DNA from: Bacteroidaceae bacterium
Lineage (GTDB): Bacteria > Bacteroidota > Bacteroidia > Bacteroidales > Bacteroidaceae
Direction of reading: 5' to 3'
NCBI GenBank assembly: GCA_017466325.1
Contig: JAFTUK010000007.1
Span: forward strand, 11,315 to 75,314
Length of the DNA: 64,000 nucleotides
Shown here: positions 1 through 59,578 of the stretch, in pieces
How the letters are laid out: each line of letters begins with the position of its first letter
How positions within the stretch are numbered: position 1 is the first letter of the stretch
Notes under the pieces: model-generated
Databases searched by the model: none
What the model was told of the DNA's origin: nothing
Seen by the model: only the letters and a program-made list of their open reading frames with translations
Position numbers and translations under genes: made by a program

Positions 1-787
1 CATGATAGACACCTGCCGCAATGCCTTCCTTTTTCAACTTTTCCGCCAGCTCTTCCGTCGTCTTGCGAGCCAAACAATAGATGATTCCACTCTCACCAGA
101 ATGATGACGAATGAGTTCCACGATGGAACGCAGTTTCTCACGAGCTGAATAGCCACGTTTTACATCGAGACTCAGATTCGGACGGTCAAAGGAACCGATA
201 AACGTCTGGGCGTCCTCGATATTCAGCTGCTTCAGGATGTCCTGTTTGGTTATCTTGTCTGCCGTAGCTGTCAGCGCCATGATAGGAACACTTGGAAACA
301 ATTCACGTAATAGTCTCAATTGTGTGTACTCTGGTCGGAAATCATGACCCCAACTGGAGATGCAATGTGCCTCGTCGATAGCAAAGAGCGATACGTTTGT
401 CTTCTGCAATAGGTGCATCATACCGCTCACCAGTCGTTCTGGTGAGATATAGAGCAGTTTCACTTTCCCCTCTAGGCATCGGTTGATGATATCGCGGTTC
501 TTTCCCTCATCATTGCTGCTGTTCAATGCCTCTGCCGCTATGCCGTTTGCCTTCAGTGCCTCCACCTGGTCCTTCATCAGTGAGATGAGCGGTGAGACAA
601 TAACTGCCATTCCGTCCATTGCTAATGCAGAAATCTGAAAGCAGAGCGATTTGCCTCCGCCTGTTGGCATTAGAACAAGAGAGTCACCACCATCAATGGT
701 ATGGCAGATAATCTTCTCTTGCATCGGTCGAAAAGTATCGTACCCGAATTTCGTTTTGAGCAACCTATATAATAAATTGTTGTTCAT
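1..787 (-). CDS. recQ: ATP-dependent DNA helicase RecQ, N-terminal part (gene runs off the left edge)
   Basis: Not in the ORF track because it is truncated. Manual minus-strand translation from the ATG at 785-787 gives MNNNLLYRLLKTKFGYDTFRPMQEKII..LVLMPTGGGKSLCFQ (Walker A)..LFAIDEAHCISSWGHDFRPEY (DEAH box)..MALTATA. Confidence 0.85.
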   Translation of the reverse strand, partial: MNNNLLYRLLKTKFGYDTFRPMQEKIICHTIDGGDSLVLMPTGGGKSLCFQISALAMDGMAVIVSPLISLMKDQVEALKANGIAAEALNSSNDEGKNRDIINRCLEGKVKLLYISPERLVSGMMHLLQKTNVSLFAIDEAHCISSWGHDFRPEYTQLRLLRELFPSVPIMALTATADKITKQDILKQLNIEDAQTFIGSFDRPNLSLDVKRGYSAREKLRSIVELIRHHSGESGIIYCLARKTTEELAEKLKKEGIAAGVYH

Positions 788-3293: not shown

Positions 3294-4013
3294 CTAATCA
3301 ACACAATACGACCTTCCCAAAAAATCGGGAAACAAGTCTGTTTCATAATACTTATGGGCCAGTACGCGCATAAACTCAAATCCTGCGACATCTGTTCTAT
3401 ATACTATCGAACTGTTTTTTTTCGAATAATTCTTATGAAATCCATCAAGAGTATCGGGAAGTTTTATATCAGTCTGAACAGCCATTTCATCATAGAGGCG
3501 ATGTTCAAAAAGAGCCTGTTCGATATCGAATTCATCCGTAATGGGAAATGCAATCTGCAAATTAACGCCAGATTCCTTAACAGTCTTATTAAACGGTGTA
3601 TAAAGCTGTGGTATATTCAAATAAGCAATTAGTTCAAATATCACAGTTAGCAAAAGTGATGATTCGCAGCAATAGTCGTCATCCTTTACATAAAGGCTCC
3701 TCGCTAAAGCCAATCGATTCCCCGTCATTTCCTGCCACATTTTTTTATCTTGATCTCTTTTAGTCATGTTTATAACTACATCCATCAGATATTTTCCGAG
3801 AAAATGCACATCTTCCTTATTACCTTTAGATCGGTTATAAATATATAAGGATACCATTTGAATAGGGATAGAATGCGTATCCAATAATGGCATTGTACAA
3901 GCGGTGTTCTTTTCTATGACTAATCTCAACGTATCAAGTCTGTTCCTTATTTCTTTCTGTGTTGGACGACCTATTGAATCTGTCAAGAAAAAGAAATAGG
4001 TTAAATCCTCCAA
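3294..4013 (-). CDS. Hypothetical protein, downstream partner of the 775-aa ORF
   Basis: 239-aa ORF whose start overlaps the end of the upstream ORF by 13 nt. No motif recognised. Confidence 0.5.
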   Translation of the reverse strand: MEDLTYFFFLTDSIGRPTQKEIRNRLDTLRLVIEKNTACTMPLLDTHSIPIQMVSLYIYNRSKGNKEDVHFLGKYLMDVVINMTKRDQDKKMWQEMTGNRLALARSLYVKDDDYCCESSLLLTVIFELIAYLNIPQLYTPFNKTVKESGVNLQIAFPITDEFDIEQALFEHRLYDEMAVQTDIKLPDTLDGFHKNYSKKNSSIVYRTDVAGFEFMRVLAHKYYETDLFPDFLGRSYCVD

Positions 4014-19187: not shown

Positions 19188-19454
19188 AAGGGCCTGGACT
19201 TTCACCGCTGGTTATCTCCTTCGTTCGTGGCTCGCTCCAACTTCATTTACGCCTCATAACGATGCCGTCCGCACCTTTTTGAGATTCATTCCCTGTCGTA
19301 TTTTATGCCTTTTCGAGATTTTATACAAGAAGTCTATTGAAAAAACATAAGTAACTTGCTTGCTTTAGGTCAACAAAGGTAAGGAGGGTTTAGCCAGAAC
19401 AACACTATGCAAAAGTTACAAGAACGATACGCATAAGCAAAAAGGACACTTCCT

Positions 19455-19560
19455 ATAAAATAAATCCAATATTGTGGAGTATTGTACCAAGCATTGCGTA
19501 GCATTGTACTAAACGTTAAGTATAATTGTACTCAATATTGGGTACAATTTTATAAACACG
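19455..19560 (-). repeat. Dispersed ~105-bp repeat, copy A (helically phased ATTGTAC submotifs)
   Basis: The reverse complement aligns by eye with 30404-30510, e.g. ttagtacaatgctacgcaatgcttggtacaatactcc versus ttaggataatgctactgaatgttaggcacaatactcc. Confidence 0.6.
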
Positions 19561-19572
19561 TATTTCACATAT

Positions 19573-20033
19573 TTATTTCCTTGTCTTAATACTTTTAGTA
19601 AGCGTTCCTAGCGCTTTTAGGACAGAGTTGTGTTTGTACTCAAATTGCTCATTAGAATGTAAGATTTTGGGGTACATATCGTATCTGTTGTAGGTTTGAC
19701 CTGATGGTCTTAGCCTACATTCAAAATAGAATTGCTTTAGCCAATGGTATCCTGAATCATGATATAGTATGATGATAAGCATGATTTCTGCCTTTGAGAA
19801 AGTAGATACCCGATGATAGGAATACTTTATAGTGTTCTTTTGCGTATATCTTGCCGTCATTATGTCAAAAAGCATGCAAAATGTATCTGCCAGAAAGAAT
19901 AATTTTATAACTTTGTCTGTGGTAATCATAACAATTATTCTTTATAATACTTTGTATATAAGCACTATAAAGATGCAGCAATTTCGCTAATAGCTATATT
20001 TATAAGTAGTTATAATTCGTTGAACTCACGTTA
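19573..20033 (-). mobile_element. IS982-family element remnant (left end plus a truncated 118-aa transposase N-terminus)
   Basis: ORF 19573..19929 MITTDKVIKLFFLADTFCMLFD..SKAEIMLIIILYHDSGY resembles IS982 transposase N-termini. The ~110-bp end sequence is homologous to 50017-50125. Confidence 0.55.
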
Positions 20034-24009: not shown

Positions 24010-24408
24010 TGATGTCTGGCATGAGACAATATATTCTCTGGCCTTTGTCGTCGTATTGTTTGAGCACTCGCGCCGTCCTCTCGTTCATGTCTTCTTAAAT
24101 AAAAACCATGCACCTCGTTATTCGGATGTCGTTTTTCGCTCACTTATTCGTAACATTGAGACCTTTGTCTCCAAATTACTCACGTTCGGAAATAAAAATA
24201 AAGATTTATTTTGTATTTCGCTCACTTATTCGTAATTTTGCACACGATTTCAATAAACATGTGGATAGATTTGGGCTGCTTGCAACCACAGAAAAAAATG
24301 CTAAAAGGAAAGACCTGCTTGGCACAGGCACAACAGGACTTTGACGCATTCCGCCCTATTTCTTTCCCCATACATTATTAATTAATAACACATTTAATTA
24401 TTAAAACT

Positions 24409-28405: not shown

Positions 28406-28632
28406 ACCCCATACTTAGGTTTCTGAGTCAAATACTGATTCTGCCCATACGGTTCTATCAGACATGCATATCGCCACTGACACCTCCGTCGTGCAGATTC
28501 ACACCCACATGCAGCCATTATGCTGTGGAAGCATTGCGAAAGCACGGCCCGTTCAAAGGCATGTACCTTGCCATCCGCAGGATACTGAGGTGCCATCCCT
28601 GGGGAGGACACGGTTACGACCCGGTACCGTGA
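28402..28632 (+). CDS. yidD: Membrane protein insertion efficiency factor YidD
   Basis: [39 protein letters not shown]. Confidence 0.85.
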
Positions 28633-28674
28633 GAACGGAAAACGGAAATCTGAAAGGTGAAAACGGAAAACTTA
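28631..28674. repeat. GAAAACGGAAA-type dispersed repeat copy
   Basis: gagaacggaaaacggaaatctgaaaggtgaaaacggaaaactta lies directly after the yidD stop. Confidence 0.7.
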
Positions 28675-28728
28675 GAGCAATCGGGTTGACCAGACTAACA
28701 ATAAACAAACAAACAACACATACATAAA

Positions 28729-30305: not shown

Positions 30306-30403
30306 CGCGTTATTTATATCAAGCCGGGTTATCAAAAGCATTTATACAAGAAAACAAACAGTTAAACCCAAATCGGTCATTGACTGATTTGGATTAAAAT
30401 ATA

Positions 30404-30510
30404 CGTATATAAAAATGTACTCAATGCTCAGTACGAATAGATTTAATGTTTAGGATAATGCTACTGAATGTTAGGCACAATACTCCCTAATGCTGAATTT
30501 ATTTAATACA
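30404..30510 (+). repeat. Dispersed ~105-bp repeat, copy B
   Basis: Homologous to the reverse complement of 19455-19560. AATG(C/T)T submotifs recur about every 10-11 bp. Confidence 0.6.
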
Positions 30511-30653
30511 TACCGTTCTTTCTGATTATATTACCTATTCTTATGCACAAAACAACGGTATGTGAACTAATATCCGTCCTGCCCTAATCTCCGGTTCTCG
30601 CATTAGCAATGGAACAGACAATACAATAACAACCTTTTAACAGCATCGCCCCC

Positions 30654-38208: not shown

Positions 38209-38319
38209 GACCCGCCCCTAACCCAGTCCGCGCGTCGAACTGGGAAGTTCTCCCCTCACAAGGTACAGAAAGCACATTCAGTGCTTCCCCAAAGACCTTG
38301 TTCGCCACAAGGGAGGGGA
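38208..38319. repeat. GC-rich palindromic MITE-like element (GACCC..CCCCTCC-ACAAGGGAGGGG family)
   Basis: ggacccgcccctaaccc ... ttcgccacaagggagggga. The element starts within the mnmG stop codon. Confidence 0.65.
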
Positions 38320-38489
38320 ATATATACGCCCAAGTATGTGGCATAAGAGGGCAGATAATTCAAAGAACTTGGGGTTCTCGGATTACTCGGATTACTCAGA
38401 GTATTCAGATTACTCAGAAGCCCCCCCCAACAGACCTAATGTTTCACGTGAAACAATTACACGAAGACCACAATAGCATTATACTAAAT

Positions 38490-39025: not shown

Positions 39026-39135
39026 GACCCCTCCCCAACCCTCCCACAGGGGGAGGGAGTATAATGTACTGCTGATGTAAGCACAAGACGGTTGATACCA
39101 CTCCCCTCCCTTGTGGAGGGGTTGGGGGTGGGTCC
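39026..39135. repeat. GC-rich palindromic MITE-like element, complete copy with ~35-bp terminal inverted repeats
   Basis: gacccctccccaaccctcccacagggggagggagt ... actcccctcccttgtggaggggttgggggtgggtcc. Confidence 0.75.
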
Positions 39136-39149
39136 GGTAACCTTCAAAA

Positions 39150-41012
39150 ATGAATATGAAACAAGCTCCCCAGCAACGCCTGAAATCCATCGTGGGCAGC
39201 TTACCCGAACTGCCCGGATGCTATCAGTACCTTGACGAAAACGACACTATCATCTACGTCGGCAAGGCAAAGAACCTGAAGCGAAGGGTAAGCAGTTATT
39301 TCAACCGTGAGCACGATAACTTCAAGACGAGCGTACTTGTTTCCAAGATTCACGATATAAAATACATCGTCGTAAACACGGAAGAGGATGCCCTCCTGCT
39401 TGAAAACAATCTAATCAAGCAATGGAATCCCCGCTATAACATCCTGCTGAAGGACGGTAAAACCTACCCGAGCATCTGCATAACCAATGAATATCTCCCA
39501 CGCATTGTCTACACGAGAAAGATAGACAAGAGACTTGGAACATACTTCGGCCCTTATAGCCACGTTCCAACGTTGCAGGCCCTGCTGGAGCTCATCAAAA
39601 ACCTGTACCCATTACGTCGGTGCCGCGAAAAAATCACCGCAGAAACCATACAGAACGGCAAGCACAAACTATGCCTGGAGTACCATATAAAGAACTGCAA
39701 AGGTCCGTGCTGCGGTCTTCAGAGCAGAGATGAATACCTTTCGTACATAAACGAGGCACGTGAAATCCTGAAAGGAAACACCGGTGAAATCGAACGCCAA
39801 ATGCTTACACAAATGCAATCCCTCGCAGAAGAGATGAGGTTTGAAGAGGCAGAGGCAATAAAGCGCAAATACATCCTTCTGGAGAACTACCGAAGCAAGA
39901 GCGAGGTTGTAAGCAACACTTTGCACAATATTGATGTTTTCAACATAGAAAACGACGAAAAAAACGCCTATATCAACTATCTGCACGTTGTGAACGGTTG
40001 CATAAACCAAGCCTTTACCTTCGAATATTCAAAGAAGTTGAACGAGAGCGCAGAGGAACTTCTCATCGCCGGCATAGGCGAAATGCGTGCAAGATACGGT
40101 AGTAAAAGTCGTGAAATCATCGTTCCGTTCCACGTGGAACTATCACTGGATGGAGTGGAGTTCACCATACCGCAAAGGGGCGACAAGAAGAAGTTGCTGG
40201 AACTCTCGAAACTCAATGCCCTGCAATACAAGAAAGACCGATTAAACCAGGCTGACAAGTTGAATCCTGAGCAGAAACAGGTTCGTTGCCTGAAGGAATT
40301 GCAGGATGCTCTTGGCATGGACACCCTGCCGATGCACATAGAATGTTTCGACAACAGTAACATCAGCGGAGAGGATGCCGTGGCCGGATGCGTGGTGTTC
40401 AGGAAGGCAAAACCAAGCAAGAGCGACTATCGCAAATACAACATCAAGACGGTACAGGGTCCCGACGATTATGCCTCCATGAAGGAGGTTGTACGTCGCC
40501 GATACTCGCGCATGATGGAGGAAGGCACTTCCCTACCCGACCTTATCATAACCGACGGTGGAAAGGGGCAAATGGAGGTCGTCAGGGAGGTTATAGAGGA
40601 CGAACTGAACCTCAATATCCCCATAGCAGGATTGGCCAAGGACGACAAGCACAGGACAAACGAACTGCTCTTCGGCTTCCCCCAGAAGACCATAGGCTTG
40701 CGTCTGGACAGCGCCTTGTTCCGCTTCCTCACACAGATACAGGACGAGGTACACCGCTTTGCCATAACATTCCACAGAGATAAAAGGAGTAAACGACAGA
40801 TTGCCAGCGAGTTGGATAGCATCCCGGGCATAGGGCCAAAGACCAAGGAAGTTCTTTTAAAGCATTTCAAAAGCATGGCAAGAATACGCAAAAGCACCTT
40901 ACAGGACCTAATAGAATGTATAGGAGAAAGCAAAGGAAAGGCACTATATGAGAACCTAAGAACCACCCCTACCCCTCCATTGGAGGGAATAACAGAGGGT
41001 GAAACTCATTGA
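39150..41012 (+). CDS. uvrC: Excinuclease ABC subunit C
   Basis: GIY-YIG N-terminus (PGCYQYLDENDTIIYVGKAKNLKRRVSSYF). 620 aa. Confidence 0.95.
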   Translation: MNMKQAPQQRLKSIVGSLPELPGCYQYLDENDTIIYVGKAKNLKRRVSSYFNREHDNFKTSVLVSKIHDIKYIVVNTEEDALLLENNLIKQWNPRYNILLKDGKTYPSICITNEYLPRIVYTRKIDKRLGTYFGPYSHVPTLQALLELIKNLYPLRRCREKITAETIQNGKHKLCLEYHIKNCKGPCCGLQSRDEYLSYINEAREILKGNTGEIERQMLTQMQSLAEEMRFEEAEAIKRKYILLENYRSKSEVVSNTLHNIDVFNIENDEKNAYINYLHVVNGCINQAFTFEYSKKLNESAEELLIAGIGEMRARYGSKSREIIVPFHVELSLDGVEFTIPQRGDKKKLLELSKLNALQYKKDRLNQADKLNPEQKQVRCLKELQDALGMDTLPMHIECFDNSNISGEDAVAGCVVFRKAKPSKSDYRKYNIKTVQGPDDYASMKEVVRRRYSRMMEEGTSLPDLIITDGGKGQMEVVREVIEDELNLNIPIAGLAKDDKHRTNELLFGFPQKTIGLRLDSALFRFLTQIQDEVHRFAITFHRDKRSKRQIASELDSIPGIGPKTKEVLLKHFKSMARIRKSTLQDLIECIGESKGKALYENLRTTPTPPLEGITEGETH

Positions 41013-41103
41013 TATGTATTGATTAAATGATTATAAACTAAATATTAAATTAAACCGCACTATCTACTCCCCTCCATAGAGGGAGGGGTTAGGGGGTGGG
41101 TCC
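40961..41103. repeat. GC-rich palindromic MITE-like element overlapping the uvrC 3' end
   Basis: aaccacccctacccctccattggaggg ... actcccctccatagagggaggggttagggggtgggtcc. The left arm encodes the uvrC tail TTPTPPLEG. Confidence 0.65.
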
Positions 41104-41999: not shown

Positions 42000-42026
42000 A
42001 AGAGGTAAGACCCGACGACGACGGAC

Positions 42027-42214
42027 GGACCCTCCCCCACCCTGTCCTCTCGTCGCAATGGAGATTGCTCCCCTCATGGAGCAAAGATTGACATTCAGTC
42101 AATCCGCCAAGGACTCCATTCGCCACAAGGGAGGGGAGTAGTAACAACCGCCTAAGTGTCCATATCTGCAATACATCATACTCCCCTCCCTTGTGGAGGG
42201 GTCGGGGGAGGGTC
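42027..42214. repeat. GC-rich palindromic MITE-like element(s)
   Basis: ggaccctcccccaccc ... ttcgccacaagggaggggagt ... actcccctcccttgtggaggggtcgggggagggtc. Confidence 0.7.
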
Positions 42215-42399
42215 TTTTCCCTCTTGACAATCCAAAATTCACGCCCCTGTGGCCGAAAAAGTGAAAGAAAACGATTCTCACGAGGCAAAGAAATGCCCTT
42301 TGCAGATGATTATTAGTCTGTTAAGGGCATTTTTATTTGCATCATCCTTTTTGTGATCTAGAAGAACGAGAGAAGAAACAACGATTATAAGTCACGTTA

Positions 42400-45030: not shown

Positions 45031-47619
45031 ATGAAACTGTTCCTTTTGGATGCATACGCTCTCATCTACAGAGCCTACTATGCCTTCATCAAAAACCCGA
45101 GATACAACTCCAAGGGCGAGAACACGAGCGCCATACTGGGCTTTGTGAACACCCTGGAGGACGTCCTGCGCAACATGCGCCCCACTCACCTTGGAGTGGC
45201 TTTCGACCCCCACGGAGGCACTTTCCGCCACGAGGCCTTCCCCGACTACAAGGCCCAGCGCGAGGAGACGCCCGAGGCCATACGCTTTGCCGTGCCCAAG
45301 ATAAAGGAGATACTGGAGGCCTACCACATTCCCGTGCTGGAGGTGCAGGGGTATGAGGCCGACGATGTCATTGGCACATTGGCACATCAGGCTGACCTCC
45401 AAGGCATTGAGACCTACATGATGACCCCCGACAAGGACTATGGCCAGTTGGTGACCAACAACGTGAGCATGTACCGCCCGCCCGTAGGCAAGAGCGAGGC
45501 ACAGGTCATGGGTCCCAAGGAGATTTGCGAGAAGTGGGGCATAGAGTCGCCCCTGCAGGTAATAGACATCCTGGGACTGATGGGCGACTCCAGCGACAAC
45601 ATCCCCGGTTGCCCCGGAGTGGGAGAGAAGACCGCCTGCACCCTCATCCAGCAATGGGGAAGCATAGAGAACCTGCTGAACAATACCGACAAACTGAAGG
45701 GCGCCATACAGAGGAAGGTGACGGAGAATGCCGAGCTCATCAGGCAGAGCCATTGGTTGGCAACAATAGTGAAGGACGCTCCCATCACGCTGGATATGAA
45801 GGCACTGGAAATCAAGGAACCCGACCACAATGCCCTGCAGGAGATATACGAGGAACTGGAGTTCAGACAACTCTTGAAGAAGACCCTCCCCCCTGCCCCT
45901 CCCAAAGGAGGGGAGTGGTCACAACCGACAAGTAATACGTCTATACATAATACTACCCTCTCTAAGAAGGGAGAAGGAGGAGGGGCCTCTATGCTTGGCG
46001 GCAATTTCCGCTTCAAAGACGGCAGCATACAGGGCGATTTGTTTTCCGACATTGTATCAAATACACCTGTAACTACTCCCTCCCATACAGGGGAGGGACG
46101 GGGAGGGGTCCTGCCTATGGACGAGCCTCCGTTCATCCTGGATGGCAACACCATCATAGGGCACGATCTGAAGGCGCACTGGCAGGAACTCACCGCACAG
46201 TATCCCGAGGTGCAAACTTTTGGTTTAGAGACCGATGGAGTAGGGGAGAAGCAACTCTTCGACACCGCCATAGCGCACTACCTCCTGCATCCTGAAATGC
46301 GCCACGGACTTGACTATCTGAAGGATGCCTACCGCAAAGCCACACTGAAGGAACTGAAGGAACTCTTCGAGAAGGAGTTGCACGACACAGGCCTTTGGGA
46401 CATCTTCCGGCAGATGGAGATGCCCCTGATGTGCGTACTGGCACGCATGGAGCAGACGGGAGTACGCATAGACGAACCGGGGCTGGCAGAAACAAGTCGC
46501 CACTTCACCGAGGAAATGATGCACCTGGAGGAAGAGATATACCGACTGGCAGGACAGAGGTTCAACATCGCCTCGCCCCGGCAGGTGGGCGAAATCCTCT
46601 TCGACGTGCTCCAACTGGATTCCAAGGCCAAGAAGACGAAGACCGGACAATACGTTACCGGCGAGGAAGTGCTGGAAGGCCTGCGCCACAAGCACGAGGT
46701 GGTAGGCAAGATACTGGAGCACAGAGGATTGAAGAAACTGCTGGGCACATACATCGATGCCCTGCCCAAACTGGTCAATGCCTCCACGGGACACATACAC
46801 ACCACCTTCAACCAAACCGTCACCACCACGGGACGCCTGTCCTCCTCCAACCCCAACCTGCAGAACATCCCCGTGCGCGATGCCATGGGCAAGGAGGTGC
46901 GCAAAGCCTTCATCCCCGACGAGGGGCAACTCTTCTTCTCGGCCGACTACAGCCAGATAGAACTTCGCATCATGGCACACCTCAGCAAGGACGAGAACCT
47001 GGTGCAGGCATTCCTCTGCGGAGAGGACATACATGCCGCCACGGCAGCCAAGATATTCCACAAGGACATCAGCGAGGTTACCTCCGACGAGCGGCGGCGT
47101 GCCAAGACGGCCAATTTCGGCATCATCTACGGCATCAGTGCCTTTGGCCTGGCAGAGCGCCTCGGATGCTCCAGAAGCGAAGCAAAACAACTCATAGACG
47201 GTTATTTCCTGACCTATCCCGGAGTGAAGGAATACATGGAGCGGAGCATAGCCATGGCACGCGAGAAGGGGTACACCGAGACCATCTTCCACCGCCGTTG
47301 CCCCCTGCCCGACATAAACAGCCACAATGCCGTGGTACGAGGCTATGCCGAGCGCAATGCCATCAACTCGCCCATACAGGGCAGTGCAGCCGACATCATG
47401 AAGATAGCCATGATACGTGTGGACCGCCGCATGCGCCGGGAAGGCCTCCGTAGCCGCATGATTCTTCAGGTGCACGACGAACTGAACTTCAGCGTCCTGC
47501 CCGAAGAACGCGACCAACTCCAGCGACTCGTCATAGAGGAGATGCAGAATGCCGCCTCGCTCACCGTTCCCCTCATAGCCGATGCAGGGTGGGGCAGCAA
47601 CTGGCTGGAGGCGCATTAA
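45031..47619 (+). CDS. polA: DNA polymerase I
   Basis: 5' nuclease N-terminus (LLDAYALIYRAYYAF). The polymerase motifs DYSQIELR and QVHDEL are present. 862 aa. Confidence 0.95.
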   Translation: MKLFLLDAYALIYRAYYAFIKNPRYNSKGENTSAILGFVNTLEDVLRNMRPTHLGVAFDPHGGTFRHEAFPDYKAQREETPEAIRFAVPKIKEILEAYHIPVLEVQGYEADDVIGTLAHQADLQGIETYMMTPDKDYGQLVTNNVSMYRPPVGKSEAQVMGPKEICEKWGIESPLQVIDILGLMGDSSDNIPGCPGVGEKTACTLIQQWGSIENLLNNTDKLKGAIQRKVTENAELIRQSHWLATIVKDAPITLDMKALEIKEPDHNALQEIYEELEFRQLLKKTLPPAPPKGGEWSQPTSNTSIHNTTLSKKGEGGGASMLGGNFRFKDGSIQGDLFSDIVSNTPVTTPSHTGEGRGGVLPMDEPPFILDGNTIIGHDLKAHWQELTAQYPEVQTFGLETDGVGEKQLFDTAIAHYLLHPEMRHGLDYLKDAYRKATLKELKELFEKELHDTGLWDIFRQMEMPLMCVLARMEQTGVRIDEPGLAETSRHFTEEMMHLEEEIYRLAGQRFNIASPRQVGEILFDVLQLDSKAKKTKTGQYVTGEEVLEGLRHKHEVVGKILEHRGLKKLLGTYIDALPKLVNASTGHIHTTFNQTVTTTGRLSSSNPNLQNIPVRDAMGKEVRKAFIPDEGQLFFSADYSQIELRIMAHLSKDENLVQAFLCGEDIHAATAAKIFHKDISEVTSDERRRAKTANFGIIYGISAFGLAERLGCSRSEAKQLIDGYFLTYPGVKEYMERSIAMAREKGYTETIFHRRCPLPDINSHNAVVRGYAERNAINSPIQGSAADIMKIAMIRVDRRMRREGLRSRMILQVHDELNFSVLPEERDQLQRLVIEEMQNAASLTVPLIADAGWGSNWLEAH
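45882..45987. repeat. GC-rich MITE-like element inserted in frame inside polA
   Basis: gaccctcccccctgcccctcccaaaggaggggagtggt ... actaccctctctaagaagggagaaggaggaggggcc. Confidence 0.65.
46075..46111. repeat. Solo arm of the GC-rich element inside polA
   Basis: actccctcccatacaggggagggacggggaggggtcc. Confidence 0.6.
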
Positions 47620-47730
47620 AACGGAAAGGTGAAAACGGAAAACTGAGTTGAACGGATGAGCGGGTGAGAGGTTAGCGGATTAGTTTTCCGTTTTCCGTTT
47701 TCCCATTTCCGTTTTCCCATTTCCGTTTCT
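47618..47730. repeat. GAAAACGGAAA-type palindromic repeat cluster
   Basis: aaacggaaaggtgaaaacggaaaact ... agttttccgttttccgttttcccatttccgttt. The loop carries GGTGAGCGG-type units. Confidence 0.75.
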
Positions 47731-47817
47731 CCACTCCGTCCTACGTTAAAGAATGCGAAATACTTGCACCATAGAGCACTTATTCGTACCTTTGACCCTT
47801 GAAAACAAGCCTTTGAC

Positions 47818-48396
47818 ATGAAAAAGATACCATTCATACTACTGCTGGCGGCAATGATGCTGACCCTCACGTCTTGGAAAACGGAAAACGGAAAACGGAA
47901 AACGGAAAACTCATCCGTTCACCGCTCACCGCTCACCACTCACCTCTCGCCGTTCACCGCTCACCGCTCACCGTTCACTATCCCATCAGACACCACCAAG
48001 TCCGCCAAGGATACCACCAAGACACGCAAGGCTTATCCGCAAACAGCCCAGGACACCTCTGTGGCATACACGGACACTTTGAGCGAGGTTAGCGTGAAGG
48101 CCGACAAGAACCTGCGTGTTGTGGATGTCATAAACAAGTCCCTGAAAAACGGTCTTACACAACCGCGCCAGAAAGGTATCTCCGACATCATAGGCGAAAA
48201 GGCCAACGACTACATCATGCACCCCTTTGCGTGGCGCGAACGACGCAAGGAAAAGAACCTGAAGAAAGCCAAGGAGAACATCCAGAAACTGGATGCCGCC
48301 AAGACCTACGAAGACGAACTCACCGAAGCCATCAACCGCCAGTTGCGCGAGGACTCTATTGCTGCAGCAAAGAAGAAGATGGGAGAGAGGAAGTAA
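47818..48396 (+). CDS. Hypothetical exported protein whose N-terminal region is encoded by tandem 7-bp repeats
   Basis: Signal-like MKKIPFILLLAAMMLTLTSW. Residues ~20-55 are encoded by (GAAAACG)x4 and (CACCGCT)n at 47876-47976. Confidence 0.5.
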   Translation: MKKIPFILLLAAMMLTLTSWKTENGKRKTENSSVHRSPLTTHLSPFTAHRSPFTIPSDTTKSAKDTTKTRKAYPQTAQDTSVAYTDTLSEVSVKADKNLRVVDVINKSLKNGLTQPRQKGISDIIGEKANDYIMHPFAWRERRKEKNLKKAKENIQKLDAAKTYEDELTEAINRQLREDSIAAAKKKMGERK

Positions 48397-50016: not shown

Positions 50017-50220
50017 CTAACGTGAGTTCGACGAAATATAACTGCTTATAAATTTGGCGATTAGCGAAAATTGTTGTGTCTTTATAGTGCTCAATTACAA
50101 AGTATTACAAACAATAATCGCTATGCTCACCGAGGACAAAGTTACAGAATTATTTTTTATGGCAGATGAATTTTGCAAGTTTTTTGACTGGATGATGGCA
50201 GGATTGTCATCTCTTTAGTC
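50017..50220 (+). mobile_element. IS982-family left-end remnant (second copy)
   Basis: taacgtgagttcgacgaaatataactgcttataaat.. is homologous to the reverse complement of 19925-20033. It encodes MLTEDKVTELFFMADEFCKFFDWMMAG and then stops. Confidence 0.55.
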
Positions 50221-54424: not shown

Positions 54425-55318
54425 ATGGAGAAGATTACTATGCATGATATCATTCCTTCCAGCAAGGACCTGTTTCTCATGGCATCGGGCCTGCTTATAT
54501 TTGCCATCGGATACTCATGCTTCATCCTGCCCTACGAGATGACCAGCGGAGGTGTTTCCGGTATAGGCGCACTGATATTCTATGTCAGCGGTTTCCCTCC
54601 CTCCTATACCTACTTCATAGTAAACGTGGCACTGCTTCTCTTTGCCCTAAAGATACTTGGCCTGAAGTACACGGTAAAGACCCTGATTGCCACAGCTATG
54701 GTGTCTCTGTTCATTGACTTGGGCCAACGTCTGGTACCTGTAGACGAAATGGGTAACATGTACAAGATGGTGGGTGAAGAGAAGTTCATGGCATGTGTGC
54801 TTGGCGGACTCACTGAAGGCCTCGGCCTCGGCCTCGTATTCCAGTCTGGAGGCAGTACCGGAGGTTCGGACATCATAGCCTCCATCATAAACAAGTACAA
54901 ACCTATAAGCTTGGGACGCGCCCTGCTAATGGTGGACATCTTCATCGTGGGCATGAACTGGTTCGTCATCCGCGATATGGAAACCCTGGTAATGAGTTAC
55001 TGCATGATGTTCATTGCCATCAACATGGTTGACTATGTCGTCAACGGCGCACGCCAGAGCGTACAGTTCATCATCGTTTCCGATAAGTACGAGGAGATAG
55101 CCACGCGCATAAACCACGATCTGCAAAGAGGCTGTACCATCCTGGATGGTCATGGATGGTACAGCAAGCAAAAGAAACCTGTACTGCTCGTTCTGGCCAA
55201 GAAATTCGAGCGCAAGGATATCTTCGACCTTATTCACAGAGTAGACCCCAAAGCCTTCGTCTCCATGTCCAATGTGGAAGGCGTCTTCGGCGAAGGTTTT
55301 GACCCCATTAAAAAGTGA
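54425..55318 (+). CDS. YitT-family membrane protein (paralog)
   Basis: Same architecture as the upstream gene, with C-terminal ..LVLAKKFERKDIFDLIHRVDPKAFVSMSNVEGVFGEGF. Confidence 0.8.
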   Translation: MEKITMHDIIPSSKDLFLMASGLLIFAIGYSCFILPYEMTSGGVSGIGALIFYVSGFPPSYTYFIVNVALLLFALKILGLKYTVKTLIATAMVSLFIDLGQRLVPVDEMGNMYKMVGEEKFMACVLGGLTEGLGLGLVFQSGGSTGGSDIIASIINKYKPISLGRALLMVDIFIVGMNWFVIRDMETLVMSYCMMFIAINMVDYVVNGARQSVQFIIVSDKYEEIATRINHDLQRGCTILDGHGWYSKQKKPVLLVLAKKFERKDIFDLIHRVDPKAFVSMSNVEGVFGEGFDPIKK

Positions 55319-55424
55319 AAACGGAAAGGTGAAAACGGAAAACTAAGAATGATTTCCGTTTTCACCTTTCATCTTTCACCTTTCCGTTTTCCGTTTTTAG
55401 ATTTCCGTTTTCCGTTTTCCGTTT
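55316..55424. repeat. GAAAACGGAAA-type palindromic repeat cluster
   Basis: gtgaaaacggaaaggtgaaaacggaaaact..atttccgttttcacctttc..tttccgttttccgttt fills the whole YitT-rdgB spacer. Confidence 0.75.
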
Positions 55425-55431
55425 AATTAGT

Positions 55432-56043
55432 ATGGTATTCGCGACAAACAACGAACACAAACTGCGCGAGATACGTCAGATACTCGGTTCGCAGATAGAG
55501 ATACAATCCTTGGCCGAAATAGGTTGCACAGAGGAGATTCCCGAAGACAGCGACACACTGGAGGGCAATGCCCTGCAGAAAGCACGCTATGTGGCAGAGA
55601 AATACGGCGTGGACTGCTTTGCCGACGACACTGGCCTCCATGTCGATGCGCTGGATGGCGCACCCGGAGTATACACTGCCCGTTTCGGCACCATGAACGG
55701 ATATGGCGACAGCCACGACTCCACCGCCAATATCCGTTGCCTCCTAGCCAAGATGGAAGGCAAGGAAAACCGTACCTGCCGTTTCCGCACCGTCATAGCA
55801 CTGGTAAGGCATACTACAAAGTCAGGCAACTCAGAACCCGAACTTGAAGAACACCTCTTCGAAGGCATAGTGGAGGGTAGGGTAGTACATGAACTCCGTG
55901 GCGAGAACGGTTTCGGCTACGACCCTGTCTTTGAAGTTGAGGAAAGTGGTCTCACCTTCGCAGAAATGGGTCCAGAAGGCAAGAATGCCGTTTCTCACCG
56001 CGCCCGTGCCGTTGCCCGCCTGGCAGAGTTCCTGCTGGGATAA
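55432..56043 (+). CDS. rdgB: Non-canonical purine NTP pyrophosphatase (RdgB/HAM1)
   Basis: VFATNNEHKLREI and FGYDPVF. Confidence 0.9.
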   Translation: MVFATNNEHKLREIRQILGSQIEIQSLAEIGCTEEIPEDSDTLEGNALQKARYVAEKYGVDCFADDTGLHVDALDGAPGVYTARFGTMNGYGDSHDSTANIRCLLAKMEGKENRTCRFRTVIALVRHTTKSGNSEPELEEHLFEGIVEGRVVHELRGENGFGYDPVFEVEESGLTFAEMGPEGKNAVSHRARAVARLAEFLLG

Positions 56044-56197: not shown

Positions 56198-56274
56198 CCT
56201 CGGTGGCGGTAAAATAAATCGCCAGTGGCCGTTCGTCTCACCGCCACTGGCGGTAAACTTTATCGCCACCGAGG
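56198..56274. repeat. Compound palindrome between convergent genes
   Basis: cctcggtggcg-gtaaaataaat-cgccagtggc .. gccactggcg-gtaaactttat-cgccaccgagg. Confidence 0.65.
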
Positions 56275-59303: not shown

Positions 59304-59377
59304 GCTTCAGTAGCTCAGTTGGTTAGAGCACATGACTGTTAATCATGGGGTCGTTGGTTCAAGCCCATCCTGAAGCG
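59304..59377 (+). tRNA. tRNA-Asn (GUU)
   Basis: Cloverleaf read by hand: acceptor gcttcag/ctgaagc, D arm gctc..gagc, anticodon loop ctGTTaa, T loop ttcaagc. Confidence 0.9.
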
Positions 59378-59415
59378 CAAAGACGAGAAAAAGGGCGTCG
59401 CTCAGTTGCAAAACT

Positions 59416-59489
59416 GCTTCAGTAGCTCAGTTGGTTAGAGCACATGACTGTTAATCATGGGGTCGTTGGTTCAAGCCCATCCTGAAGCG
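59416..59489 (+). tRNA. tRNA-Asn (GUU), identical tandem copy
   Basis: Same 74-nt sequence 112 bp downstream. It is followed by the hairpin atagcc..ggctat and attt. Confidence 0.9.
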
Positions 59490-59578
59490 CACGCAAGTGA
59501 TAGCCTGTCGGTAACGGCGGGCTATATTTGTTAAATGACGCGCGCACGCGAACGAATTATTAGGTACGGCGTAACAAA

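What the first reader, a model, noticed from the sequence alone, without database searches (positions are those of the whole stretch)
45882..46111. Palindromic GC-rich repeat element inserted in frame inside polA (RPE-like)
Seen: one complete (~106 bp) and one half (~37 bp) copy of the intergenic GACCC..CCCCTCC-ACAAGGGAGGGG element family lie within the polA ORF. They are translated as ..LPPAPPKGGEWSQPTSNTSIHNTTLSKKGEGGGAS.. and ..TTPSHTGEGRGGVLP... This places them between the 5' nuclease domain and the region where the 3'-5' exonuclease-like domain should start. The reading frame is intact. The same family also supplies the last residues of uvrC (TTPTPPLEG). Known: Rickettsia palindromic elements insert in frame into protein genes. 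Inference: an analogous selfish repeat has colonised a tolerant linker of an essential gene here.
Basis: partly seen in the sequence, partly recalled or inferred. Interest (0 to 1): 0.65.

Follow-up and report, generated by a model that had tools for sequence, protein, structure and literature searches.

The report
Palindromic repeat built into polA linker
A small GC-rich palindromic repeat that normally lies between genes in gut and rumen Prevotella-like bacteria is translated as part of the flexible linker of DNA polymerase I, and other strains carry other repeat "cassettes" at the same spot, which makes it a Bacteroidota counterpart of the Rickettsia palindromic elements.

Summary
polA (45031-47619, +) holds three ~37-nt units of an interspersed family (ACTCCCCTCC-loop-GGAGGGG-TTGGGGGTGGGTC). 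An inverted doublet lies at 45882-45989. A 5'-truncated copy (spacer remnant plus right arm) lies at 46045-46112. Both are in frame. Four more copies lie in or next to intergenic DNA at 38.2-42.2 kb, and one supplies the last ~16 codons and the stop of uvrC.

The segments begin right after the last helix of the 5'-nuclease domain. They are lineage-specific. Among 104 PolA relatives (78-100% identical), site 1 holds the GC element (22), a GGAAAAC-derived ENGK cassette (47), a 9-mer SEYSE cassette (17), an EKEKGER cassette (10) or a plain K/E-rich linker (8). Site 2 holds the truncated element (44) or native sequence (58), and nearly every combination of the two sites occurs. The cassettes are less diverged than the surrounding gene, so recombination moves them.

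The family occurs in many Prevotella-group genomes as REPIN-like doublets without target-site duplications. About 15% of sampled units lie in frame inside genes verified by Pfam (priA, uvrD, metH, glmS, an M16 peptidase and others).

The RPE-like reading is supported. The enzyme that moves the element is unknown. This is a new member of a known kind.

The parts
45031..47619 (+). polA ORF, 862 aa: 5'-nuclease domain (aa 2-266), variable linker (aa ~284-362), truncated exo-like region (aa ~363-484) and family A polymerase domain (aa 485-860). There is no PF01612 hit.
45882..45917 (-). Left arm (one repeat unit, reverse orientation) of the full element at polA site 1. It encodes ..TLPPAPPKGGEW.
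   Evidence: nhmmer E 1.7e-7; 78-81% complementary to the intergenic arms at 39089-39134 and 42180-42216
45918..45949 (+). Spacer of the site-1 element (tcacaaccgacaagtaatacg...). It is homologous to the spacers of the FeoAB copy in L128 and, in reverse orientation, of the copy at 39026-39134.
   Evidence: direct comparison of the printed spacers
45950..45989 (+). Right arm of the site-1 element, degenerate (ACTACCCTCTCTAAGAAGGGAGAAGGAGGAGGGGCCTC). It encodes ..TTLSKKGEGGGAS.
   Evidence: nhmmer E 3.8e-6; arm-to-arm identity only 0.65; fold z -1.8
45990..46005 (+). 16 nt (TATGCTTGGCGGCAAT, encoding SMLGGN) that always accompany the GC cassette. Their origin is unknown. The whole allele-specific site-1 cassette is 45885-46005.
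   Evidence: DNA alignment with L001-L006
46006..46044 (+). Native island (FRFKDGSIQGDLF) between the two cassettes. The DGS[IV]QGDLF core is conserved in nearly all relatives.
46045..46112 (+). Site-2 cassette: a 5'-truncated element. The spacer remnant is 46045-46074 and the right arm is 46075-46110. It replaces about 96 nt of native sequence (GGFGEPASSPQEE..EPDLFSMAAAPAP) and encodes SDIVSNTPVTTPSHTGEGRGGVLP.
39026..39134 (.). Intact intergenic doublet (109 bp) between a phosphoribosyltransferase (Pribosyltran) gene and uvrC. It folds as one long hairpin of -67.7 kcal/mol (z -5.6).
40958..41103 (.). Element across the uvrC/deoC junction. Its left arm and spacer supply the last ~16 codons and the stop codon of uvrC. 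It is absent in L002 and L005.
42002..42214 (.). Composite element downstream of deoC (left arm with nested inserts, clean right arm at 42178-42214). In L127, L128 and L129 a GGAAAAC-type repeat fills the same site between identical flanks.
38209..38322 (.). Composite single unit between mnmG and the phosphoribosyltransferase gene, with two nested hairpin inserts. The same composite occurs inside the right arm of the 39026-39134 copy in strain L127.

Best explanation
The segment consists of two independent copies of a non-autonomous, GC-rich palindromic repeat. One is complete but decayed. The other is 5'-truncated. The repeat resembles a REPIN or a MITE in build: two ~37-40-nt units in inverted orientation around a 30-100-nt AT-rich spacer, with ends AGACCC...GGGTCT. 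It is interspersed in the genomes of gut and rumen Prevotella-group Bacteroidales.

The arms are C-run/G-run hairpins and carry fewer stop codons than random DNA. When read through, they give Pro-rich then Gly-rich peptides with no predicted structure. A copy that lands in frame in a flexible, weakly constrained part of a protein is therefore tolerated.

In polA both copies sit in the tether between the 5'-nuclease domain and the truncated exo-like domain. There they replaced earlier linker sequence while keeping the frame and roughly the linker length. They are transcribed and, by inference, translated as passenger sequence. The site-1 palindrome has since decayed.

The alleles are polymorphic in the population and are passed between lineages by homologous recombination of short tracts.

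Shown: family membership, frame, position, lineage specificity, the mosaic of alleles, cassettes younger than their background, RNA contigs running through the element, and in-frame copies in other genes.

Inferred: that the element moves by transposition (the enzyme is unknown), that it is close to neutral, and that the peptide is present in the protein.
For: Family and chance: (7 units found, 0.00 expected).

Architecture: 25 doublets in the window and related loci share the same termini, and no target-site duplication is seen. Intact copies fold far better than shuffles, with z of -5.6, -8.4 and -14.0.

Position: the Taq Pol I alignment covers query 3-292 (Taq 14-292) and resumes at query 423. 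LEFRQLLKKT|LPPAPPK aligns to the end of the Taq 5'-nuclease domain. Pfam domains flank the segment. Residues 278-363 are coil with the lowest pLDDT.

Lineage specificity and mosaic. Site 1: GC 22, ENGK 47, SEYSE 17, EKEKGER 10, other 8. Site 2: GC-half 44, native 58. Nearly all combinations occur.

Recombination: window against L002 is 81-93% identical across polA but 96.7% in the site-1 cassette. Window against L001 is 96-100% identical, but the cassette cannot be aligned. Window against L005 is about 81% identical but 91% in the site-2 cassette.

Relaxed constraint: amino-acid diversity is 0.035 and 0.196 in the two cassettes, against 0.007-0.017 in the domains.

Transcripts: metatranscriptome contigs X25 (45745-46097) and X27 (45772-46147) cross the element without gaps.

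Generality: in-frame copies lie in GlmS, UvrD, GH97, an M16 peptidase, MetH, altronate dehydratase, PriA and an NTP transferase, with Pfam domains on both sides. A further copy lies in FeoAB of the same species complex. 10 of 67 units are in genes, compared with 85 of 728 RPEs in R. felis (PMC1166351).

Not an artefact: the sequence is held by DNA runs from at least 8 studies, and 22 distinct PolA proteins from the search (each the representative of a 90%-identity cluster) carry the site-1 allele.
Against: No strain with an empty site 1 was found. Every allele in this species complex carries some cassette, so the primary insertion event cannot be reconstructed.

No transposase (RAYT or other) was identified. 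The one element cluster I inspected flanks an ABC transporter.

The arms are only moderately depleted of stop codons: 4.9 of 6 frames are open, against 4.1 in controls.

The structure model is poor overall (mean pLDDT 45), so 'surface linker' rests mainly on the Taq alignment and on variability.

The RNA contigs may contain contaminating DNA.

The genome-wide copy number in this organism could not be counted.
Confidence: 0.75

Rival explanations
1. This is cassette swapping rather than transposition. The polA linker, like several intergenic sites, would be a hypervariable dock that is repeatedly patched with whatever short repeat DNA is at hand. The patching would occur by ectopic gene conversion, template switching or hairpin-directed insertion. 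On this reading the GC element was copied in from an intergenic copy and did not transpose into an empty site.
For: Four unrelated cassettes share the same boundaries at polA site 1. Downstream of deoC the window has the GC element where L127-L129 have a GGAAAAC-type repeat, between identical flanks. Downstream of polA the window has heptamer inverted repeats, L127, L129 and L001 have 9-mer arrays, and L004 has nothing. A 77-nt composite from 38.2 kb reappears nested in the hairpin of the copy 0.8 kb away in strain L127. No target-site duplication is seen.
Against: Copies in different genes and genomes share homologous spacers and complete termini. This is what copy-out of a whole element predicts. 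The in-gene copies in PriA, the M16 peptidase and FeoAB are near-perfect whole doublets, with no sign that another repeat was there before. The two readings are not exclusive: transposition could bring the element in, and recombination could then shuffle the alleles.
Confidence: 0.3
2. The inserted sequence has been taken over for a function. It could set the length or flexibility of the tether between the 5'-nuclease and polymerase domains. Alternatively, its residual mRNA or DNA hairpin or G-rich tract could modulate polA expression.
For: The frame is kept in all 120 relatives listed, and total length stays within 831-874 aa despite cassette turnover. This suggests selection on the presence or length of the linker. 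The strand GGGAGGGGTTGGGGGTGGG of the intact units fits a four-G-run pattern (read directly from the sequence).
Against: The peptide sequence is the least constrained part of the protein. Unrelated cassettes substitute for one another. The polA hairpin has decayed to z -1.8. No conserved motif is shared by the cassettes.
Confidence: 0.1
3. It is an assembly or binning artefact: repeat-induced chimeric joining of polA fragments in a metagenome assembly.
For: The window comes from uncultured gut metagenome material, and repeats are known to cause misjoins.
Against: The same allele, with an open frame, was recovered in 22 distinct PolA proteins from the search (each the representative of a 90%-identity cluster), drawn from ENA, NCBI and Logan assemblies. 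It is also in DNA runs from at least 8 studies and in RNA-derived contigs that span both junctions. Its flanks are collinear with all relatives.
Confidence: 0.01

Closest known systems
Rickettsia palindromic elements (RPE-1 to RPE-8)
   Same: Both are short (~100-150 bp) palindromic interspersed repeats that lie mostly between genes. In both, a minority of copies lies in frame inside genes, including housekeeping genes, adding a peptide without breaking the ORF. The in-gene share is similar: 10 of 67 units here, against 85 of 728 in R. felis (PMC1166351).
   Different: The phylum differs (Bacteroidota gut and rumen commensals, not obligate intracellular Alphaproteobacteria). The composition differs too, by my recollection: these are GC-rich C-run/G-run hairpins, whereas RPEs are AT-rich. 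No sequence relation to RPEs was tested. Here the polA site is polymorphic within a species complex, other repeat families occupy the same site, and the cassettes move by recombination.
REP doublets (REPINs) mobilised by RAYT tyrosine transposases
   Same: Each unit is a short imperfect palindrome. Two units in inverted orientation around a spacer form a long hairpin, which is the REPIN definition in PMC3337134 and PMC3116915. Singlets and decayed copies coexist with doublets. There is no target-site duplication. The family persists across many related species.
   Different: No RAYT gene was found or looked for systematically. REPINs are described as extragenic, whereas this family is often translated. 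I saw no Bacteroidota REPIN-RAYT system in the papers I searched.
whalefall-1 RNA motif (Rfam RF01762)
   Same: It is the best Rfam match to the polA left arm. The consensus GUAUCuCuCCUuGGGGaGaGACA..AGgGuGAGGAC has the same plan: a C/U-rich then G/A-rich hairpin, an optional insert, and a G-rich tail ending GGAC.
   Different: The score is 25.6 bits, below the gathering score of 37, so this is not a member. That family is annotated as an sRNA of unknown function from metagenomes, not as a mobile repeat.
Bacterial MITEs (for example Correia elements of Neisseria, Nezha of cyanobacteria); comparison from my own knowledge
   Same: They are small, non-autonomous, have terminal inverted repeats, fold as hairpins and are occasionally fused to ORFs.
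   Different: MITEs derived from DDE insertion sequences make target-site duplications and share their terminal repeats with a parent IS. No duplication is seen here, and no parent IS is known.

Membership tests
RPE-like in-frame palindromic repeats (functional class) | Multi-copy short palindromic repeat, dispersed in the genome | tested here: met
   7 strong units in the window against 0 expected. 25 doublets in the window and related loci, and about 49 of the 120 loci returned by the capped scan are from Prevotella-group genomes.
RPE-like in-frame palindromic repeats (functional class) | Copies lie in frame inside intact protein genes, and orthologues lack them | tested here: met
   polA. 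uvrC tail. GlmS, UvrD, GH97, M16 peptidase, MetH, altronate dehydratase, PriA and NTP transferase, each with Pfam domains on both sides. FeoAB. Orthologues without the insert were examined only for polA and uvrC.
RPE-like in-frame palindromic repeats (functional class) | The insert lies in a surface or linker region away from catalytic sites | tested here: inconclusive
   The Taq alignment puts it right after the 5'-nuclease domain. It is predicted to be coil with the lowest pLDDT, but the whole model is poor at mean pLDDT 45. Diversity is high.
Rickettsia palindromic elements proper (RPE-1..8) | Sequence homology to an RPE family; host in the genus Rickettsia | not tested
   No RPE model is available in the tools. 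The host is a Bacteroidales bacterium, so this is an analogue, not a member.
REPIN / REP-RAYT | Unit is a 20-40-nt imperfect palindrome; two inverted units plus a spacer form a long hairpin | tested here: met
   (z -5.6 to -14.0 for intact copies)
REPIN / REP-RAYT | No target-site duplication | tested here: met
   Flank comparison of 26 regex matches to element-like spans gave a longest direct repeat of 0-2 nt.
REPIN / REP-RAYT | Cognate single-copy RAYT (Y1 HUH transposase) gene flanked by the units | not tested
   Only one cluster was inspected (L022), and the flanked gene there is an ABC-transporter ATPase. No whole genome could be searched.
MITE derived from a DDE insertion sequence | Terminal inverted repeats plus a fixed-length target-site duplication | tested here: not met
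   Terminal repeats are present (AGACCC..GGGTCT), but there is no duplication.
whalefall-1 RNA (RF01762) | Covariance-model score at or above the gathering threshold (37 bits) | tested here: not met
   25.6 bits at 45883-45916 (-)
DNA polymerase I (family A, Taq-like) | 5'-nuclease N and SAM-fold domains plus a family A polymerase domain | tested here: met
   PF02739 5e-56, PF01367 2e-31, PF00476 1e-161. Taq Pol I match at E 3e-164. No PF01612 3'-5' exonuclease hit.

The most novel reading that the evidence does not exclude
The polA linker and several intergenic sites in these genomes may be 'repeat docks'. At these sites unrelated short-repeat families (the GC palindrome, GGAAAAC and CCGCTCA heptamer arrays, a 9-mer array) replace one another between nucleotide-identical flanks, and small hairpin modules nest inside the hairpin loops of others. 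This would imply a structure-directed or site-directed insertion-and-replacement mechanism that has not been described. Candidates are hairpin-targeted single-strand transposition or template switching at stalled forks. Such a mechanism would continually rewrite protein linkers, including those of replication and repair enzymes (PolA, PriA, UvrD, UvrC).
Probability: 0.2. Interest if true: 0.75.

Novelty: new member of a known kind. Interest (0 to 1): 0.55.

Why it matters
In-frame colonisation of genes by palindromic repeats is best known from Rickettsia, where it is often linked to the relaxed selection of intracellular life. I found no report of it in Bacteroidota.

Here the same behaviour appears in abundant, free-living gut and rumen Bacteroidales. 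It affects core replication and repair genes (polA, priA, uvrD, uvrC) and metabolic genes.

The polA site is polymorphic within one species complex, so population metagenomes provide natural allele series for two questions. How are such elements gained, decay and get exchanged? How much sequence freedom does an interdomain tether have?

There are also practical consequences. These cassettes create strain-specific length and sequence variants in a marker-like gene. They break assemblies, inflate protein-cluster counts and can mislead domain annotation.

Tried and rejected
A fuzzy regex scan of the window timed out and was replaced by an nhmmer profile.

Rfam at gathering thresholds found nothing at the elements. 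At permissive E-values it gave only chance miRNA-hairpin hits and a sub-threshold whalefall-1 match.

The structure prediction used 23 close homologues and gave a poor model (pLDDT 45).

I looked for a transposase in the densest cluster of units (L022) and found ABC-transporter genes instead.

I looked for target-site duplications and found none.

I tested whether the arms are free of stop codons. The effect is modest: 4.9 open frames against 4.1.

I tested whether arms match their own partner better than arms of other elements. The excess is small: 0.785 against 0.727.

I tested whether the ENGK cassette of L001 is a structured palindrome. It is not significant at z -1.15, so I describe it only as derived from the GGAAAAC repeat family, on the blastn matches to 28.6, 47.6-47.9 and 55.3 kb.

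Literature searches for a described Prevotella or Bacteroidales REP, MITE or RPE-like element found nothing relevant. The RAYT survey I read does not mention Bacteroidetes.

The assembly-artefact reading is rejected.
Full report
**What is there.**
The ORF at 45031..47619 (+) encodes an 862-aa DNA polymerase I. It has a 5'-nuclease domain (PF02739 aa 2-170, PF01367 aa 173-266) and a family A polymerase domain (PF00476 aa 485-860). It has no PF01612 3'-5' exonuclease hit.

Between these domains the DNA contains three units of a repeat whose consensus is ACTCCCCTCC-(4-6 nt loop)-GGAGGGG-TT-GGGGGTGGGTC. A profile built from the units finds seven strong matches in the 64-kb window (E 4e-9 to 4e-6). 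Three are in polA: 45880-45917 (-), 45950-45988 (+) and 46073-46110 (+). Four are in or next to intergenic DNA at 39.0-42.2 kb. A degenerate pattern gives 7 matches against 0.00 expected from shuffles.

**Anatomy of the element.**
A full element is two units in inverted orientation, with the G-rich tails outward, around an AT-rich spacer of 30-100 nt. The ends read AGACCC...GGGTCT. This plan recurs in 25 doublets from the window and from Prevotella-group genomes.

Intact copies fold as one long hairpin far better than shuffled controls. The intergenic copy at 39026-39134 gives -67.7 kcal/mol (z -5.6). A copy inside FeoAB of a related strain gives z -8.4. A copy inside an M16 peptidase gene forms a perfect 41-bp stem (-103.7 kcal/mol, z -14.0).

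Spacers of copies within this species complex are homologous. Compare the polA, FeoAB, 39.0-kb and 42.1-kb copies. These are therefore descendants of one element and not independent hairpins. No target-site duplication flanks the elements.

Rfam has no family for it. The best match is sub-threshold, to the whalefall-1 motif, which has the same hairpin-plus-G-tail plan (25.6 bits against 37).

**Position in the protein.**
phmmer aligns residues 3-292 with Taq Pol I residues 14-292, and the next block starts at residue 423. The element begins directly after LEFRQLLKKT, the helix that ends the 5'-nuclease domain.

The AlphaFold model is poor overall (mean pLDDT 45, built from only 23 close homologues). 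In it, residues 278-363 are pure coil with the lowest confidence, while 364-470 is the best-predicted part.

I therefore place both cassettes in the interdomain tether, or in the degenerate N-terminal part of a truncated exo-like domain. This placement rests mainly on the alignment and on variability.

**Lineage specificity.**
An alignment of 23 relatives and a classification of 104 of the 120 relatives listed by the search (78-100% identity) show two variable sites separated by the conserved island FRFKDGSIQGDLF.

- Site 1 carries one of five things: the GC element (22 proteins), an ENGKRKTENGK cassette (47), a SEYSEYSE cassette (17), an ENSEKEKGERRKEK cassette (10), or, in the most distant relatives, a plain K/E-rich linker (8).
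- Site 2 carries either the element-derived SDIVSNTPVTTPSHTGEGRGGVLP (44) or native GGFGEPASSPQEE..EPDLFSMAAAPAP (58).
- Nearly every combination of the two sites occurs.

At DNA level the cassettes have the same boundaries in all strains. Site 2 is not a bare half unit. It is a 68-nt, 5'-truncated element (spacer remnant plus right arm, 46045-46112) that replaces about 96 nt of native sequence.

The ENGK cassette matches the GGAAAAC heptamer repeats found between genes in the window at 28.6, 47.6-47.9 and 55.3 kb. The SEYSE cassette matches the 9-mer array at 38378-38420.

**How the alleles spread.**
- Window against L002: polA is 81-93% identical per 150-nt block, but the site-1 cassette is 96.7% identical.
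- Window against L001: 96-100% identical, but the site-1 cassettes cannot be aligned.
- Window against L005: about 81% identical, but 91% in the site-2 cassette.
- The 25 nt upstream of the GC cassette are identical in the window and L002, and differ in L001.

Short recombination tracts therefore carry the cassettes between lineages.

Within the 18 proteins that share both GC cassettes, amino-acid diversity is 0.035 (site 1) and 0.196 (site 2), against 0.007-0.017 in the domains. The peptides are weakly constrained. The polA doublet has also lost most of its palindrome (arm-to-arm identity 0.65, z -1.8). This fits an old, decaying copy, or selection against a strong hairpin in this gene.

**Reality of the allele.**
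DNA runs from gut, sheep, goat and bovine metagenomes in at least 8 studies hold the sequence. Contigs assembled from metatranscriptomes run through the element and both junctions (X25 45745-46097; X27 45772-46147). Other runs show loose ends that match the ENGK alleles. DNA carry-over in those libraries cannot be excluded.

**Generality.**
About 49 of those 120 loci are from Prevotella, Bacteroidaceae, Bacteroidales or Paludibacteraceae genomes, mostly gut or rumen MAGs.

In 43 of these loci the profile finds 67 units. Ten of the units lie deep inside long ORFs that have Pfam domains on both sides:

- GlmS, between the GATase and SIS domains
- a UvrD helicase
- a GH97 glycosidase
- an M16 peptidase (whole doublet)
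- MetH, between the pterin-binding and B12-binding domains
- altronate dehydratase
- PriA (whole doublet)
- a nucleotidyl transferase

A further doublet sits between the FeoA and FeoB parts of a fused gene in a strain of the same species complex as the window. In the window itself the element supplies the C-terminus and stop codon of UvrC.

The in-gene share of about 15% is close to the 85 of 728 reported for RPEs in Rickettsia felis (PMC1166351).

**Mechanism.**
The build matches the published definition of REPINs: imperfect-palindrome units, an inverted doublet with a spacer, singlets and decayed copies, and no target-site duplication (PMC3337134, PMC3116915). I could not test the defining partner, a RAYT transposase. 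The only cluster inspected flanks ABC-transporter genes, and no whole genome was available.

Tolerance in genes is partly explained by composition. The arms have fewer stop codons than random segments (4.9 against 4.1 open frames of 6). They translate to Pro-rich then Gly-rich peptides in either orientation.

**An unexplained extra.**
The 'either/or' pattern is not limited to polA.

- Downstream of deoC, the window has a composite GC element (42002-42214) where three related strains have a GGAAAAC-type repeat between identical flanks.
- Downstream of polA, the window has heptamer inverted repeats, three strains have 9-mer arrays and one strain has nothing.
- In strain L127, a 77-nt composite identical to part of the 38.2-kb copy is nested in the hairpin of the copy 0.8 kb away.

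This suggests that hairpin repeats attract or replace one another. I rate a dedicated mechanism at about 0.2.

**Verdict.**

- The events replace linker sequence rather than insert into an empty site.
- The alleles are polymorphic and moved by recombination.
- The polA palindrome has decayed.

I found no description of this family in the literature searched. I class it as a new member of a known kind, with moderate interest.

Noticed in passing
window 28620-28682, 47611-47742, 47876-47978, 55311-55438: Arrays of the heptamers GGAAAAC and CCGCTCA, often as inverted pairs (for example 47663-47717 against 47876-47930, 89% complementary). The array at 47876-47978 is in frame inside a small signal-peptide ORF (47818..48396, ..WKTENGKRKTENSSVHRSPLTTHLSPFTAHRSPFT..). 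Its length differs between strains in 21-nt steps. The same family forms the ENGK cassette of polA in other strains.
   Followed up: partly
window 38378-38420; L004 polA linker; L127, L129 and L001 downstream of polA: A 9-mer tandem array (GGATTACTC / TCCGAGTAA) lies between mnmG and the phosphoribosyltransferase gene. The same family encodes the SEYSEYSE cassette in the polA of other strains. It also fills the site downstream of polA where the window has heptamer repeats. L004 has that site empty.
   Followed up: partly
window 42002-42214 against L127, L128, L129 (after deoC): Between identical flanks the window has a composite GC element and the three related strains have a GGAAAAC-type repeat. 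This is the same 'either/or' seen in polA, here at an intergenic site.
   Followed up: partly
L127 ~3600-3680 (right arm of the copy orthologous to window 39026-39134); window 38222-38308: A 77-nt insert, made of two small hairpin modules, is nested in the hairpin of the right arm in strain L127 only. It is the reverse complement of part of the composite unit 0.8 kb upstream. This indicates nested insertion or gene conversion between neighbouring copies.
   Followed up: partly
L023 2847-2974; L079 6393-6518; L128 14215-14331: Near-perfect whole doublets lie in frame inside an M16 peptidase, PriA and a FeoA-FeoB fusion. The M16 copy can form a 41-bp perfect stem (-103.7 kcal/mol) within the coding region.
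   Followed up: partly
window 45031-47619: This PolA lacks a detectable 3'-5' exonuclease domain. There is no PF01612 hit, only about 120 residues lie between the linker and the polymerase domain, and all 120 listed relatives are the same. It appears to be a Taq-like enzyme with a truncated, probably inactive exo region.
   Followed up: partly
window 45883-45916 (-): A sub-threshold match to the Rfam whalefall-1 motif (25.6 bits against 37), with the same hairpin-plus-G-tail plan. That metagenomic 'sRNA' motif might itself be a unit of a related repeat family.
   Followed up: no
window 24255-24314 (+): SAM-II riboswitch aptamer (RF01726), 54 bits against a gathering score of 44.
   Followed up: no
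window 59304-59378 and 59416-59490 (+): Two tandem tRNA-Asn (GTT) genes. The 82-nt repeats that contain them are 98% identical.
   Followed up: no
window 19848-20033 against 50018-50204; 19433-19565 against 30397-30529: Long inverted repeats (about 190 nt at 80-88% complementarity, 30 kb apart, and 133 nt at 74%, 10.8 kb apart). They may be the ends of a mobile or invertible segment.
   Followed up: no
window 56198-56274: A 35-nt-arm inverted repeat with a 7-nt gap (CCTCGGTGGCGGTAAAATAAATCGCCAGTGGCCGT / ACCGCCACTGGCGGTAAACTTTATCGCCACCGAGG), 83% complementary. Its nature is unknown.
   Followed up: no
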